DNA from: Chiloscyllium plagiosum
Taxonomy: Eukaryota
Direction: 5' to 3'
Length of the DNA stretch: 20,000 nucleotides
Assembly (NCBI RefSeq): GCF_004010195.1
Contig: NC_057717.1
Coordinates: forward strand, 103,918,177-103,938,176
Positions within the stretch are counted from its first letter, which is position 1. Each line of letters starts with the position of its first letter. The notes beneath the pieces are model-generated. The model was given only the letters and a program-made list of their open reading frames with translations, was not told where the DNA came from and made no database searches. The translations under genes were made by a program, and so were the position numbers. Positions 10,783 to 17,320 of this stretch are shown piece after piece.

Positions 10783-10984
10783 TGGGAGACACTGAGGTCT
10801 GCAGACGTTGGAGATCAGAGTTGAGAGTGTGCTGCTGGAAAAGCACAGCAGGTCAAGCAGCATCCGAGGAGCAGGAGAATCGACATCTCGGGCCAGAACC
10901 CTTTCCTGATGAAGGGGTCTGGTCTGATCTCCTGCTCCTCGGATGCTGCCTGACCTGCTGTGCTTTGCCAGCAACACACTCTCA
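10783..10984. mobile_element. Palindromic Penelope-derived mini-element with a perfect 13-bp TSD
   Basis: Arms at about 10820-10903 and 10906-10986 are inverted repeats; CTGATGA at 10906-10912; unpaired tail 10783-10819. ACAAGTGAGAAAC occurs at both 10770-10782 and 10985-10997. Confidence 0.85.
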
Positions 10985-11029
10985 ACAAGTGAGAAACCGT
11001 ATGGATGCGAAGCAATAATGAAGAAAAGG

Positions 11030-11260
11030 AACAAAGACAGAAATTGCTGGAGAAACTCAGCAGGTCTGGCACCATCTGTGCAGGGAAAGCAGAGTTACTG
11101 TTCGGGTCGAGCGACCCTTCATCAGAACCGGGTCACCGGACTCGAAATGTGAATGTTGTTTCTCTTTCCACAGATGCTAACAGACCTGCAGAGTTTCTCC
11201 AGCAAATTCTGTTTTTGTTTCCGATTTCCAGCATCTGCAGTTCTTTGATTTTAATCTTAA
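11030..11260. mobile_element. Palindromic Penelope-derived mini-element, second family
   Basis: Arms at about 11030-11125 and 11130-11220. Minus-strand CTGATGA(11125-11119)-A-GGGTC-GCTC-GACCC-GAAC. Unpaired tail about 11221-11256. Possible decayed TSD 11013-11029 vs 11261-11277 (12/17). Confidence 0.8.
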
Positions 11261-11576
11261 CAATAACAAATAGAACGTGTTCTCCTATCGTTAGAGTGAC
11301 TTTCTCAGAGCGGAACCTTCCACTTGGGTCAGTCAAGCTGAGAATCTGATGTGGGAATAGGGAGATGGAAGGCAATGATGTCCAGACACCAAAAGAATGG
11401 TGGACTGGGGCATGCACGTCGAGTCATCGAGCTGTACAGCATGGAAGCAGATCCATTGATCCAACTCATCCAGGCTGACCAGGTATTTGCTGCGCCACCT
11501 CATACCATAACTATCACATGAATACCACCAAATGGTCAGCACTCTGATAAGCAGGAATGATATCATGACTTCTTAC

Positions 11577-11668
11577 CTGCTGAATGATACAGGGGCAGAC
11601 AGTCATAAATAATGTCATCATGCTTCATTCGGAATCCATAATAAGCAAACACAGCCATCCTGTAGTAC
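11577..11668 (-). CDS. slc27a1: FATP internal exon (92 nt; exon 5): [31 protein letters not shown]
   Basis: LPLYHS motif. AG at 11670-11669; donor GTAAGA starting at 11576; phase 2-1. Confidence 0.95.
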
Positions 11669-12169
11669 CTACAAGCAAGCACACCCGCTGATGAGTAGGA
11701 TGGAGGGGAAAAAGCAGGGCTTTGTATCTTACAGAGCAAGCAGGTCAACTAACTGAGGTGAGAAATCCCCATCCAAGCTCTGCTGCATTGGGTCATCCTT
11801 CGTGTTGCTGGGTGCTAAAACCCAAGACAAAGATTCAACTTAACGTCTTGGTGAATAACGACTTTCCCATTGTTGAGGTGCACCAAATGATAGAGCACAA
11901 AAAAAGGGCCGTTTTGTCACTTCTGAAAGAGCTGTCAAATCTCACTCCCCCTCCCCCAGACCCCACCCACTTCAGGATTCATCCGATTCGCTTGCACAGA
12001 TGCTGCTGACTTTGTTTCTCAAGCATCGTATTTGGATCGTAATCCACCAAAAAAATACTTTTGCTGTCTCCCCTCTTGTTAATCTGTCAACATTGCCAGG
12101 GTCAAGTCTGAACTGTCAGAGCTGAAACAGCCACTGCTCTCTGCTGTGCTGCTCAGTCTCAGCACATAC

Positions 12170-12239
12170 CTGCTGTGTACTACAATGGCCGCTTTCGGCA
12201 TACCCGTGGTGCCAGACGTGTAGATGTAAAAAAGACGAT
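12170..12239 (-). CDS. slc27a1: FATP internal exon (70 nt; exon 4): [27 protein letters not shown]-binding P-loop
   Basis: Translated by hand (absent from the ORF track); [12 protein letters not shown] motif. AG at 12241-12240; donor GTATGT starting at 12169; phase 1-2. Confidence 0.95.
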
Positions 12240-12607
12240 CTGTAAAGAGGACAGGGAGAGAGGGAAATCAGGTGCAGCATGTTTATACAGCAACGTGCTT
12301 CTCATCTTCCAATTGTCACACAATTCCAGCTATATGTCAAGCACAGACCCCACAATGGAATGATGAACACAAGAAACATAATTGCCCCTTATCTCATAGG
12401 TCCCAGCTCTTAACTGTTATACAGAGAAATACAGAGAGTTTGAGCTGCAGTGGCTAACCACTCCAACAACGGTACAAGGTCAAAAAACACTGAGCAATCA
12501 GTGAACATTGGCCCAAACATCTACGATTTCCATAACTATAAAACGCTAACGGTTTTCACTGTTTATATAATTAAACGCTGCATTTGATTATCTCTTACCT
12601 TCAGAAT

Positions 12608-14383: not shown

Positions 14384-15099
14384 TGAACCAGGTGATACTT
14401 GCCCAGTGTCATTTGCAAGGAAAGTGAAAGAAGACAGATTTCCCTGACAACCAGACACATGGCCATTCGCAGTCATGTATGCATCAAACGTACAACCCCT
14501 TACACTGCTTCCTCTAATAGGAATTAACCCTCGGTCATAGCAGCCCATTAGCCAGCGTTGTTCACATGCTTATCTCATACAGTGGGGAGGAAACATACTG
14601 TCAGAGCACCAAGGATAGATGGCTGGTCTAAAATACAAGGCCTCAGAGACTGACAATTCACCCCGGGATTGGAAATTAAGAAACAATGTGTGTCACGGGG
14701 CAGTTGTTGGAAGTTCAGCCCAGTGTCCCTACTGTTTGAGAGCAGCTTGTCAGGGTTTTGGCAATCAAGCAAACCTGTGTTCGAGACAGCCCAGCCTTTT
14801 CGGTTACACTGGCTGGAAAGGACAGAACCAGTTGCAACAAGCAGCTAGAAATGAAAAGCTCACTGTACATATATAAGCTCTCGAAGATGGAAATCTAATC
14901 TGGTGACTACAGAAGTCACTACTGAAACATTAATGGAATGGAATTGAATGAATACACTACAGTGGTCCAAAGGCAGCTCACCTTAAGAGTAATTAAGGAG
15001 GGATAGCCAACCAGTGAAGCCCACATCCCAGGAGGGAAAGTTTTTAAAAATCAACTGGTCAACAGTAGGGCTGATGTTTACAGTAGAATAAGTACTCTG

Positions 15100-15292
15100 A
15101 TTTTAATTCTGGGTCAGTTCTTTGCTACAATCCAAACCGAATCCCACTGCTCTGTCTATGCTCAATAGTCCTGTATGTTCCTCTGTTTTTAAATATTTAC
15201 CTAACTTTCTCTTTTTAGATCCATCAGTCACTGACCTCAACCCCTCCCTGCAAGCCAAACCCATATTCCCAACAGTCCTCAGTGAAATGAAA
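15100..15292 (-). mobile_element. Old CR1 3' remnant
   Basis: aatcccactgctctg...aaatatttacctaac...cctcaacccctccctgcaagcc...attcccaacagtcctcagtgaaa follows the reverse CR1 end layout seen at 160-414. Confidence 0.45.
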
Positions 15293-15511
15293 TTAATTAA
15301 TTGCAATTAATTGTATTCACTAATCTTTTGGCTACAATTCTAGCGTGACATCTCCTGGACAGCCACTGCTGAACGAAAGAAAACAGTCCTTCGCCATTCA
15401 TCTTGTTAAAATTCGTCATCATTTAAAAACAAACTCAATTAAAACTTCACTTACATTCCTCTGCATATAATCCCAACATCTCAATCCTTGCCCAACAACT
15501 CAAGTTCCACT

Positions 15512-15688
15512 TCTTTTTATTCACTTATGGTCGGTGATGTCACTGGCTGAGCCCAGCATTTATTTACCCATCCCTAATTCCCAGAGGGCAGTTAAGAGCC
15601 TACCACGTTGCTGTGGGTCTGGAGTCACATGTAGGCCCGACCAGGTAAGGATGGCTGTTTTCCTTCCCTAAAGGATATTAGTCAGCCT
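15512..15688 (-). mobile_element. 3' part of a tRNA-derived SINE with a LINE-like tail
   Basis: 15596-15688 is a close homologue of 16092-16186. 15512-15580 is the reverse of the LINE tail at 4660-4730. Confidence 0.75.
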
Positions 15689-16087
15689 TAACATTAGGAC
15701 ATCCTAAGCATTAGCCTAGCGGAGGAGATGGAAATTCCAAACTCTTCCCCCCACCCTGTCAAAAGGTTCTTGGGAAGGGGGTGACAACCGAAGATTTCAA
15801 AACTCGGATTTACAAATTTGGTACCGAGGGAATAAAGGTGGTCCGACGATGTCAAATGTCCAGTCTCGGCAGGGAAGGCCAAACAGCTTTCCAATTCTAG
15901 GAAACCAACGCCAGCCCTAAAACGTGGGCAGCTTCTGACCAATTAGGGAACAAATGGCGCTTGAATTTCAAAGAAATCCTGCTCACAGCTGAGCAGAACA
16001 TGCAGGCATTAAATTTCAGGCTCACACTCATTCCACAGCTGCTGGGATTAGACCTGGAAGTTTATTTTAAACCAGCATGAAGGCATC

Positions 16088-16347
16088 ACTGAGAATCAAC
16101 CACATTGCTGTGGGTCTGGGGTCACATGTCGGCCAGGCCAGGTAAGGACGGCAGATTCCTTCCCCAAAGGACATTAAATGAGCCAGATGAGTTGTTTCAA
16201 CAATCAATAATGAACCTGTGGTCTTCATTAGATTTTTAATTCCGGATTTTTATTGGAGTCAATCTGCCGTGGTGGGATTTGAACCAGAACATTGCGTGGG
16301 CCCCTGAATTAACAGTCCTGTGATAATACCACTAGGCCACTGCCTCC
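16088..16347 (-). mobile_element. 5' part of a tRNA-derived SINE (same family as 15512-15688)
   Basis: Minus strand starts GGAGGCAGTGGCCTAGTGG. Pol III box A TGGCCTAGTGG at 16339-16329, box B GGTTCAAATCC at 16285-16275. Confidence 0.8.
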
Positions 16348-17121
16348 ATATTGTATTCCTGTTTGAGTTTTGTCTTGTCTGGTTTCTCCGTGTGACGATT
16401 ATGATGTTTGGTGATCAGAATCACGTGAAAGGTCAGTAAGAAAAACACACACTCAAATAAAAAATCATCTGCCAACAAGAATCTTGTCGCAATTTCAGAA
16501 GAGTGGCTATTTTTAAATCAGCTGACATCTGGTGTGTGATAAACGACGAGAAAACTTCCCAACTCTGCCTTGACATATTAGCTTTGGCTCAGTTTGATGA
16601 TCACAGCATGAGCAAGTCACCGTCACAACCCCTGCAAGCCACCTTAGCTCAATCAAGACAGTGTCTGTAACTGAAACGGTTACTGGCAGCGCACTGCAGC
16701 CATACTCTGTGCACTTTTCCACTTATTAAATACAAAAGGCAACAGCTGAATGGCATGAACTGAAATCAGTTAGATGCACATCAACTAATGCAGTCTCTGG
16801 TGCGGCTTTTCATTTACAAAATAAAAATGAACAATCTGACAGGGCACAGGAGTCCCATATTAATCTCCATTGTATCAGATTCACCTCTTGCAAAAAAAAC
16901 CGTCCAAGCGTTAAAGCCACAATGCTCAAGATGTGTAATTTTATTTCAAGAACATTAATTTTTTAAAAATCTAAAAGACTTCACTAATAGAATGAAACCT
17001 GTTCTACTGCAAAGAGGGAAGCATAATCCATCTTTTGTACCGTGTCGGAAACGTTGCATCACTCGGGCCTTGGAGTGGCTGCTGGAACCCCTACTGGAAT
17101 GCACTGCTTTCACTGACAGTG

Positions 17122-17320
17122 ATGTGGAGGTGTCAGCGTTGGACTGGGGTGGACAAAGTTAAAAATCACAGGACACCAAACAGGTTTATTTGGAAGCACT
17201 AGCTCTCAGAGCGCTGCTCCTTCGTCAAGTAGCTCCCTGATGAAGGAGCGGCGCTCCGAAAGCTAGTGCTTCCAAATAAACCTGTTGGACTATAACCTGG
17301 TGCAGTGTGATTTTTAACTT
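17122..17320. mobile_element. Palindromic Penelope-derived mini-element, third family, with an intact hammerhead core and a TSD
   Basis: Arms at about 17156-17228 and 17237-17320; tail 17122-17155. CTGATGA-A-GGAGC-GGC-GCTCC-GAAA-GC-TA at 17237-17265. TTCACTGACAGTG (17109-17121) vs TTCAATGACAGTG (17319-17331), 12/13. Confidence 0.85.

What the first reader, a model, noticed from the sequence alone, without database searches (positions are those of the whole stretch)
10895..17245. In all three palindromes the inversion point coincides with the 5' edge of the hammerhead core
Seen: symmetry centres at about 10904, 11127 and 17232 each lie within roughly 10 nt of a CTGATGA box (10906, 11125 on the minus strand, 17237), in three different families. 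The single copy at 6952-7080 also stops 4 nt 5' of its core. Inference: the ribozyme fold defines the truncation or strand-switch point, for example by an RT pause. This is not the predicted cleavage site, which lies 3' of GAAA-NN-UH, so simple self-cleavage does not explain it. This could be an undescribed mechanistic feature.
Basis: partly seen in the sequence, partly recalled or inferred. Interest (0 to 1): 0.7.

Follow-up and report, generated by a model that had tools for sequence, protein, structure and literature searches.

The report
Penelope-element inverted pairs meeting at hammerhead
The three palindromes are ordinary head-to-head insertions of the end pieces of Penelope-like jumping genes, and they turn around next to the small hammerhead ribozyme most likely because the RNA that was copied starts there, not because the ribozyme stalls the copying enzyme.

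Summary
All three palindromes turn within 10 nt of a CTGATGA box. In a wider sample of this genome, 18 of 55 family-1 arms have their 5' end in the 6 nt just 5' of the box.

The repeats are 95-130-nt 3' end pieces (pLTR segments) of Penelope-like elements (PLEs). Long copies carry a GIY-YIG nuclease and a reverse transcriptase upstream. Each piece starts with a minimal hammerhead and ends at one of two fixed 3' termini about 35 nt apart, the PLE "tail". Each palindrome is one insertion: 19 of 27 pairs have a 10-15-bp target duplication, and 23 of 27 have exactly one tail.

Uninverted copies share the same sharp 5' terminus, and family 2 never extends past it. [quoted passage not shown] Two converging cDNAs are joined there.

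An RT pause is not supported: the stop lies on the far side of the fold, and the Anolis PLE enzyme reads through its hammerhead in vitro (PMC11167929). The architecture is known; only the adjacency of the terminus to the ribozyme is a new detail. Earlier notes of this scan describe the same elements.

The parts
10770..10782 (.). P1 left target-site duplication, ACAAGTGAGAAAC
   Evidence: 13-nt exact direct repeat with 10985-10997
10783..10903 (-). P1 left arm. Family-1 PLE end piece with sense on the minus strand. Its outer end is the tail terminus and it lacks the box.
   Evidence: aligned to reference about 919-1035
10904..10984 (+). P1 right arm. Family-1 end piece starting 2-3 nt 5' of the box (10906-10912). 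Its outer end is the short terminus. The GAAA region carries a deletion.
   Evidence: aligned to reference about 910-1002
10985..10997 (.). P1 right target-site duplication
11019..11126 (-). P2 left arm. Family-2 end piece with sense on the minus strand. It carries the box (11119-11125) and 3-4 nt 5' of it, and ends at the short terminus.
11127..11260 (+). P2 right arm. Family-2 end piece starting at helix II, without a box, ending at the tail terminus. A possible 6-bp duplication CAATAA lies at 11013-11018 / 11261-11266 and is weak.
17110..17121 (.). P3 left target-site duplication, TCACTGACAGTG
   Evidence: 8 nt exact; 11 of 12 by reading against 17320-17331
17122..17232 (-). P3 left arm. 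Family-3 end piece with sense on the minus strand, a worn box (CTTGACGA) and the tail terminus.
17233..17319 (+). P3 right arm. Family-3 end piece starting 4 nt 5' of an intact minimal hammerhead core (box 17237-17243, helix II GGAGC/GCTCC, GAAA, GC, TA), ending at the short terminus.
17320..17331 (.). P3 right target-site duplication
6942..7080 (-). Single family-1 end piece with the tail. Its 5' end is at 7080, 4 nt 5' of a worn box (7070-7076).
   Evidence: reference 909-1033; no clear target duplication
4494..4615 (+). Family-1 copy that reads through the box (4527-4533) into upstream PLE 3' UTR sequence. It ends at the short terminus and is a counter-example to truncation at the box.
   Evidence: reference 882-1001
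427..500 (+). Family-2 copy truncated inside the hammerhead, starting at the 3' half of helix II and GAAA

Best explanation
Each palindrome is one insertion event of a Penelope-like element (PLE). What was inserted is the short stretch of PLE RNA between its 5' end and one of two internal reverse-transcription start sites about 35 nt apart (the known PLE tail).

Proposed mechanism:
1. Both strands of the staggered target break prime cDNA synthesis, so two antisense cDNAs grow towards each other.
2. At least one cDNA runs off the 5' end of the RNA.
3. The two cDNA ends are joined. Small inverted repeats inside the hammerhead often help (UCAU/AUGA around the box, or the helix II hairpin).
4. The result is a head-to-head pair flanked by a target duplication.

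[quoted passage not shown] In these three families that end lies 1-6 nt 5' of CUGAUGA, at the first base of the 3-4-nt 5' strand of hammerhead helix I. The most likely reason is that the pLTR promoter starts transcription there. The hammerhead is a neighbour of the breakpoint, not its cause.

Shown: the identity of the elements, the breakpoint peak, the target duplications, the two 3' termini and the one-tail rule. Inferred: priming on both strands in vivo, run-off at an RNA 5' end, and that this end is a transcription start.
For: Identity.
- Long family-1 copies continue upstream into a GIY-YIG ORF (PF01541, 23.4 bits against a cutoff of 22.6).
- An RVT_1 ORF (31.4 against 29.6) lies on an element with the same 3' end.
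- 27,632 first-look candidates matched the RT fragment.

Single insertion events.
- 19 of 27 head-to-head pairs have exact flanking direct repeats of 10-15 nt. None of 26 displaced controls reaches 10.
- P1 has a 13-nt duplication and P3 has 11 of 12.

Two 3' termini.
- Arm ends fall at reference about 994-1005 or 1033-1040.
- Reads and contigs of other copies break off at the same two places into unlike, A/T-rich flanks (table 7).
- Exactly one tail occurs in 23 of 27 pairs, against 13.4 expected if the arms chose independently (P = 1.4e-4).

A discrete 5' terminus.
- 18 of 55 arms end at 907-912.
- 21 of 27 pairs have at least one arm ending at 899-915.
- Uninverted copies with target duplications of 16, 14 and 12 nt begin at 908-911, 910 and 909.
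- Five family-2 copies begin at GTT|CTGAAGA with unrelated flanks, and none in the sample runs further.
- Depth of reads and contigs from other copies rises 25- to 90-fold between L006 bins 1488-1504 and 1505-1521, where the box is at 1513.

Promoter-like context.
- Family 1 has TCATTC at 907-912. That this fits the initiator consensus is recalled, not tested.
- ATTTAT lies 35-38 nt 5' of the box in 9 of the 10 long copies (of 14) that carry an exact ATTTAT; the tenth has it 43 nt away.
- Long family-3 copies carry TATAAAT about 38 nt 5' of the box.

Literature.
- The Anolis PLE cleaves and extends both strands, starts RT at two adjacent internal sites that bound the tail, and gives products whose length follows the RNA 5' end (PMC11167929, main text read).
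- Penelope has a LINE-like internal promoter in the pLTR (PMC2377424, passages read).
- Inverted pLTRs with junction palindromes and a one-sided tail are described (PMC3846280, passages read).
Against: - No RNA evidence for a start at this place. Single-cell polyA reads gave no place where molecules begin or end, and 98% of the laid reads run on into unlike flanks, which indicates passive read-through of other copies. That library is not suited to 5' ends.
- An initiator-like word is seen only in family 1. In family 3 the TATA-like word predicts a start about 4-8 nt 5' of the observed ends.
- In D. virilis the start site lies 46 nt (spliced) or 121 nt (unspliced) 5' of the hammerhead (PMC2377424 together with PMC4209133), so adjacency is not a general PLE rule.
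- I could not see the 5' end of any full-length element. L051 came with 1,831 of 4,200 bases withheld.
- 6 of 27 pairs have no arm ending at 899-915. Their centres lie, for example, in the helix II loop or 30-40 nt 3' of the box.
- Junction positions come from BLAST or local alignments and my reading of them, with an uncertainty of about 3-5 nt.
Confidence: 0.6

Rival explanations
1. RT pause or termination at the ribozyme. The folded hammerhead, or the PLE protein bound to it, makes the reverse transcriptase stop or switch strands at the 5' edge of the core.
For: The terminus coincides with the 5' boundary of helix I in three families, two of them unrelated in sequence. The Anolis hammerhead needs the PLE protein to cleave, so the protein probably touches this RNA region (PMC11167929).
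Against: The stop lies after the whole fold has been copied. No family-2 copy in the sample passes it, while 12 of 55 family-1 arms pass and then end at scattered places. In vitro, Anolis product length follows RNA 5' truncations from -126 to +20 across the hammerhead, and hammerhead mutants leave product size unchanged (PMC11167929). That is another family and an in vitro result.
Confidence: 0.15
2. Snap-back self-priming of one cDNA (or of an antisense template) at a hairpin. The small inverted repeats around the box let a single nascent strand fold back and copy itself, as proposed for rotifer PLEs.
For: Short inverted repeats sit exactly there (TCAT...ATGA and helix II). Junctions such as 907/917 fit this. 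The idea is published (PMC3846280, discussion passage read).
Against: In 12 pairs the arm that reaches further 5' lacks the tail while its partner has it, against 8 the other way. A fold-back copy cannot be longer at its outer end than the strand it copies. Uninverted copies share the same terminus. A stronger 5-bp inverted repeat nearer the RT start sites (GTGCT..AGCAC) is not used as a centre in any pair.
Confidence: 0.15
3. Hammerhead self-cleavage makes the RNA end.
For: Four of 55 arm ends lie at 941-949, just 3' of the predicted cut after reference 940. These may come from cleaved RNA.
Against: The main peak lies about 30 nt 5' of the predicted cut. A type-I hammerhead cannot cut at its own 5' edge. 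No reads ended at the Anolis cut site (PMC11167929).
Confidence: 0.04
4. Chance, assembly artefact or later DNA-level rearrangement.
For: Palindromes can be assembly artefacts.
Against: The arms differ by 5-12%. Target duplications flank whole pairs. Opposite-strand joints are seen in another run's reads and contigs (table 5). The peak has P of about 3e-18.
Confidence: 0.02

Closest known systems
Insertion units of endonuclease-positive Penelope-like elements: pLTR, adjacent inverted pLTR, one-sided 30-40-bp tail and target duplication (Arkhipova et al. 2013, PMC3846280; Craig et al. 2021, PMC8557442)
   Same: Head-to-head inverted copies, a palindromic junction, a tail on one arm only (23 of 27 pairs), target duplications of 10-15 bp, a hammerhead inside the repeat, and GIY-YIG plus RT in long copies.
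   Different: Most insertions here are only the 95-130-nt repeat itself, alone or as a pair, with no ORF between. The repeat's 5' boundary lies directly at the hammerhead, which the papers I read do not state.
Minimal hammerheads (min-HHR) of metazoan PLEs (Cervera and De la Pena 2014, PMC4209133)
   Same: CUGANGA box, an extra base before helix II, a closing G-C pair of helix II, GAAA, a two-base palindrome in place of helix III, and a short helix I.
   Different: Helix I is only 3-4 bp, and its 5' strand is the first bases of the element. Activity was not tested, and most copies are worn.
Poseidon element PAc of Anolis carolinensis, in vitro (Frangieh et al. 2024, PMC11167929)
   Same: Two adjacent internal RT start sites that bound the tail, an AC-rich start region, A/T-rich targets, and both target strands extended.
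   Different: In PAc the pLTR extends more than 126 nt 5' of the hammerhead. The in vivo one-tail-per-pair rule and the 5' terminus at the ribozyme are from this genome only.
HDV-like ribozymes at the 5' end of R2 and L1Tc retrotransposon RNA (as reviewed in PMC6765202)
   Same: The ribozyme's 5' edge coincides with the element's 5' end.
   Different: Those ribozymes cut at their own 5' edge and so create the end. A type-I hammerhead cuts near its 3' side, so here the coincidence needs another cause.
L1 twin priming (recalled, not read here)
   Same: Inverted 5' parts formed during target-primed RT. Three pairs here (L047b, L010b, L003a) look like it, with a 40-55-nt inverted tail segment.
   Different: Most pairs duplicate the same stretch in both arms instead of splitting one copy.

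Membership tests
Endonuclease-positive Penelope-like element | GIY-YIG endonuclease ORF | tested here: met
   L008:1755-2282:- hits PF01541 at E 7.4e-5, 23.4 bits against a cutoff of 22.6, directly upstream of a family-1 3' end. Not present in the window itself. Not shown for families 2 and 3.
Endonuclease-positive Penelope-like element | Reverse transcriptase ORF on the same element | tested here: met
   L051:1632-2369:+ hits RVT_1 at 31.4 bits against a cutoff of 29.6. The same locus holds the family-1 3' end at 3049-3301. PLE-specific RT motifs and phylogeny were not tested.
Endonuclease-positive Penelope-like element | Inverted 5'-truncated copy or inverted pLTR next to the direct one | tested here: met
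   27 head-to-head pairs in 313 kb; 13 of 23 family-1 events in the random 200 kb by my reading.
Endonuclease-positive Penelope-like element | Optional 30-40-bp tail at one end only | tested here: met
   The two 3' termini are about 32-38 nt apart. Exactly one tail in 23 of 27 pairs. All three window palindromes have one.
Endonuclease-positive Penelope-like element | Target-site duplication around the whole unit | tested here: met
   19 of 27 pairs have exact repeats of 10-15 nt, against 0 of 26 controls.
PLE minimal hammerhead (Cervera and De la Pena 2014) | CUGANGA and GAAA boxes separated by a helix II hairpin closed by G10.1-C11.1 | tested here: met
   Natural copies of all three families. 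Helix II is GGGC/GCCC, GGGTC/GACCC or GGAGC/GCTCC, with compensatory differences between families. Within family 1, 94.6% of helix II cells pair.
PLE minimal hammerhead (Cervera and De la Pena 2014) | One unpaired base between positions 9 and 10.1 | tested here: met
   An A follows the box in all three families. Column 14 is at least 90% A in 42 family-1 copies.
PLE minimal hammerhead (Cervera and De la Pena 2014) | Palindromic 15.2-16.2 with no helix III loop, then U and a non-G cleavage base | tested here: met
   GAAA-CG-TC in family 1, GAAA-CG-TT in family 2 and GAAA-GC-TA in family 3, in the least worn copies. In family 1, 24 of 42 copies have TG and 11 have CG, as CpG decay would give.
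PLE minimal hammerhead (Cervera and De la Pena 2014) | Helix I of 4-5 bp | tested here: inconclusive
   Only 3-4 bp: GUU/AAC (family 2), CAC/GUG (family 3), AUUC/GAUU with a U-U mismatch in 38 of 42 family-1 copies. Perfect 4-bp variants are AUUC/GAAU (L034) and AGUC/GACU (L024:58). Covariation within family 1 does not exceed the shuffles.
PLE minimal hammerhead (Cervera and De la Pena 2014) | Self-cleavage, as a dimer | not testable with these tools
   No assay was possible.
Rfam hammerhead families | A match to a curated covariance model | tested here: not met
   No hammerhead match at gathering score in the window. None at E up to 10 in 10700-11350, 17050-17400 and 4450-4680 or in 12 loci totalling 36,962 bases. 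Only generic miRNA-hairpin hits on the palindromes. Loop-less minimal forms may simply lie outside these models.

The most novel reading that the evidence does not exclude
The hammerhead, or the PLE ribonucleoprotein folded around it, is itself the signal that ends first-strand synthesis and hands the cDNA over to the opposite strand. On this reading a ribozyme fold acts as the 5' boundary and strand-switch element of a retrotransposon in three families. A weaker form: transcription has been selected to start exactly at helix I, so that cleavage removes a capped leader of about 33 nt and turns the mRNA into a template.
Probability: 0.15. Interest if true: 0.7.

Novelty: new member of a known kind. 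Interest (0 to 1): 0.4.

Why it matters
How PLEs integrate is still poorly understood. This genome offers many natural insertion products that agree with the in vitro picture of two internal RT start sites and priming on both target strands.

It adds two in vivo regularities:
- One tail per inverted pair.
- A sharp 5' terminus at the first base of the hammerhead.

If the terminus is a transcription start, most PLE insertions here are dead-on-arrival products of initiation at the RNA's 5'-proximal start site. That would help explain why tandem copies are needed for activity. If instead the ribozyme sets the terminus, hammerheads in PLEs would have a function at last.

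Tried and rejected
- Rfam scans gave no hammerhead family, only miRNA-like hits caused by the palindromes.
- RNA evidence. No listed holder of the window stretch is on record as RNA. I laid two raw single-cell polyA runs and one contig set on L006:1250-1750. One run laid nothing. The other gave both-strand coverage, no place where many molecules begin or end, and 98% of reads running on into unlike flanks. This gives no verdict on a transcription start; the depth step mostly mirrors copy number.
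- Full-length element. The RT-fragment search gave coordinates but no loci. One 4.2-kb stretch came with 1,831 bases withheld, including everything 5' of the RT, so the 5' end of a full element stays unseen. I did not pursue it.
- A larger random sample.
- A 3' splice site at the terminus, as in D. virilis, is rejected. The nearest AG lies 4-5 nt 5' of the modal end, and splicing would not end a cDNA.
- Pol III transcription is rejected. A TTTT run lies between the hammerhead and the RT start sites (read).
- A DPE-like reading of GAAACGT does not fit the consensus spacing (recalled consensus). I dropped it.
- Covariation within family 1 did not exceed the shuffles. Support for the fold comes from differences between families and subfamilies.
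- Family 3 upstream regions showed no GIY-YIG ORF within about 700 nt, and parts were withheld. Its PLE identity rests on architecture only.
- Papers not held: Lunse et al. 2017 and Pyatkov et al. 2004. They and the supplements of PMC11167929 (its Fig. S2) may already show genomic 5' boundaries.

Full report
**1. What is in the window**

P1 has arms 10820-10878 / 10928-10986 (95% complementary). P2 has arms 11030-11080 / 11169-11219 (88%). P3 has arms 17179-17232 / 17233-17286 (89%, no spacer), plus outer arms.

A CTGATGA box lies within 10 nt of each centre: 10906 (+), 11119-11125 (-) and 17237 (+). Seven boxes in 20 kb is not unusual, since 4.4 are expected and 30 of 200 shuffles reach 7. 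The placement is what stands out.

The single copy ending at 7080 stops 4 nt 5' of a worn box. One, at 4494-4615, reads through its box. The other, a family-2 copy at 427-500, is cut inside the motif.

**2. What the repeats are**

A search of the window's own 3.56-Gb genome with the 4515-4620 copy gave 1,072 first-look candidates. Of the 40 scored copies, nine had an opposite-strand partner abutting them.

Many copies continue upstream of the box into shared sequence. That sequence ends in a GIY-YIG nuclease ORF (PF01541). A reverse transcriptase ORF (RVT_1) lies on an element with the same 3' end, and the RT fragment has 27,632 first-look candidates.

Family 1 is therefore the 3' end, or pLTR segment, of a very abundant Penelope-like element. 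Family 2 is related to family 1 (I4). Family 3 is unrelated in sequence but has the same layout.

Earlier notes of this scan on other windows of this genome reached the same identification. They call it a shark genome, which I did not test.

**3. The motif**

All three families have the following, in order:
- CUGANGA
- one extra A
- a helix II hairpin closed by G-C (GGGC/GCCC, GGGTC/GACCC or GGAGC/GCTCC)
- GAAA
- a two-base palindrome (CG, CG, GC)
- U
- a non-G base

. These are the features that Cervera and De la Pena list for PLE minimal hammerheads (PMC4209133, text read).

Helix I is only 3-4 bp. Rfam models do not match. Covariation within family 1 is no better than in shuffles. I therefore call it a minimal hammerhead motif by layout; activity is untested. 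The predicted cut lies after GAAA-CG-UC, about 28 nt 3' of the box start.

**4. Is there a breakpoint peak?**

I took twenty 10-kb stretches at seeded random places. To these I added bystander copies in the earlier loci and the window. Every arm that holds the 3' region was placed on a natural reference copy (L020:601-1641, box at 913-919).

- Of 55 arms, 18 end at 907-912 and 31 at 903-933.
- Twelve run further upstream, with scattered ends.
- Twelve end further 3'.

(the random stretches alone give 12 of 36 at 907-912.)

Family 3 comprises 15 events, by my reading:
- 6 copies read through.
- 8 have a breakpoint within the core.
- 1 is cut further 3'.

In family 2, five copies begin at GTT|CTGAAGA with unrelated flanks, and none in the sample shares sequence 5' of that point.

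Reads and contigs of other copies, laid on a long copy, rise 25- to 90-fold in depth between the bin before the box and the bin that holds it. The peak is real.

**5. Anatomy of the pairs**

There are 27 head-to-head family-1 pairs in the 313 kb held.

- 19 are flanked by exact direct repeats of 10-15 nt. None of 26 displaced controls reaches 10. P1 has 13 nt, P3 has 11 of 12, and P2 at best 6. Each pair is therefore one insertion.
- Outer arm ends fall at two places about 35 nt apart: reference about 994-1005 and about 1033-1040. Reads of other copies break off at the same two places into A/T-rich flanks.
- Exactly one arm carries the longer end (the tail) in 23 of 27 pairs, against 13.4 expected for independent choice. 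All three window palindromes follow this rule.
- In 21 of 27 pairs at least one arm ends at 899-915. The partner arm ends anywhere from 914 to 995, often at 917-927.

All of this is the published PLE unit of inverted pLTRs, junction palindromes, a one-sided tail and target duplications (PMC3846280, PMC8557442). The two termini match the two internal RT start sites of the Anolis element (PMC11167929).

**6. Why the turn is at the hammerhead**

Uninverted copies share the terminus. Target duplications of 16, 14 and 12 nt place three of them at 908-911, 910 and 909. The end point therefore exists without any inversion. It is sharp, and in family 2 it is absolute. That is what a template's 5' end gives.

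A pause at a fold would be expected on its 3' side and would be leaky. For the Anolis enzyme, product length follows the RNA's 5' end through the hammerhead, and hammerhead mutants do not change product size (PMC11167929).

Simple snap-back of one strand does not fit either. In 12 pairs the arm that reaches further 5' is the one without the tail, while its partner has it.

My model has four steps:
1. Both strands of the break prime RT, as shown in vitro for PAc.
2. One cDNA runs off the RNA's 5' end.
3. The two cDNA ends are joined, helped by the short inverted repeats that the hammerhead supplies.
4. The box is then kept once, twice or not at all, depending on the joint. P1 and P2 keep one box and P3 keeps two.

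**7. What makes the RNA end there**

Most likely it is a transcription start.
- PLE promoters lie in the pLTR (PMC2377424; PMC6765202 citing Arkhipova 2003).
- Family 1 has TCATTC at 907-912.
- ATTTAT lies 35-38 nt 5' of the box in 9 of the 10 long copies (of 14) that carry an exact ATTTAT; the tenth has it 43 nt away.
- Long family-3 copies carry TATAAAT about 38 nt 5' of the box.

This is inference. The only raw RNA runs are single-cell polyA libraries and gave no start signal. I could not see a full-length element's 5' end, because L051 was largely withheld.

If the inference is right, most insertions here are run-off products from the RNA's 5'-proximal RT start sites and are dead on arrival.

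**8. Verdict**

The RT-pause idea is not supported, though it is not excluded for these families. The architecture is known. The adjacency of the terminus to helix I in three families and the one-tail rule are modest additions.

Limits:
- The sample is 313 kb.
- Junctions are known only to within about 3-5 nt.
- Part of the classification is by my reading of the alignments.
- Two key papers and the supplements of PMC11167929 were not seen.

Noticed in passing
27 family-1 head-to-head pairs in L002-L049 and the window (P1): Exactly one arm of a pair carries the roughly 35-nt tail in 23 of 27 pairs; 13.4 are expected if the arms chose their start sites independently (P = 1.4e-4). This suggests the two priming events are coupled.
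   Followed up: partly
L050:1200-3800: A tandem array with a 621-bp period (5 units seen). Each unit holds an inverted pair of PLE fragments. It looks like a satellite grown from one palindromic insertion.
   Followed up: no
L046:2647-2700: TTAGGG-like repeats directly abut the 5' end of a 5'-truncated family-1 copy.
   Followed up: no
L040:3400-3660: A family-1 end piece is inserted inside the hammerhead core of a family-2 copy, with a 14-bp target duplication ATGTTCTGAAGAAG. PLE pieces insert into each other.
   Followed up: partly
window 10997-11019: P1 and P2 are separate insertions only about 20 bp apart.
   Followed up: no
L006:1593-1596 and 1634-1636 (reads of other copies): The flanks behind both 3' termini are A/T-rich in the read and contig consensus, as expected from the A/T-rich target preference reported for PLE nucleases.
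   Followed up: no
window 12494 to about 14300: A long tandem array with a 38-bp unit; the repeat finder reports 46 overlapping 300-nt windows.
   Followed up: no
window 1770-2058: A minisatellite of 20/22-bp units next to a run of N.
   Followed up: no
window 886-1080 and 19279-19510: Three 65-bp direct repeats, and a 90-nt pair 99% alike spaced 142 nt apart.
   Followed up: no
L004:1-300, L049:9620-10000, L051:1-1629 and 2820-3040: Stretches upstream of long PLE copies read N (withheld), so the ORFs of family 3 and the 5' ends of full elements could not be examined.
   Followed up: no
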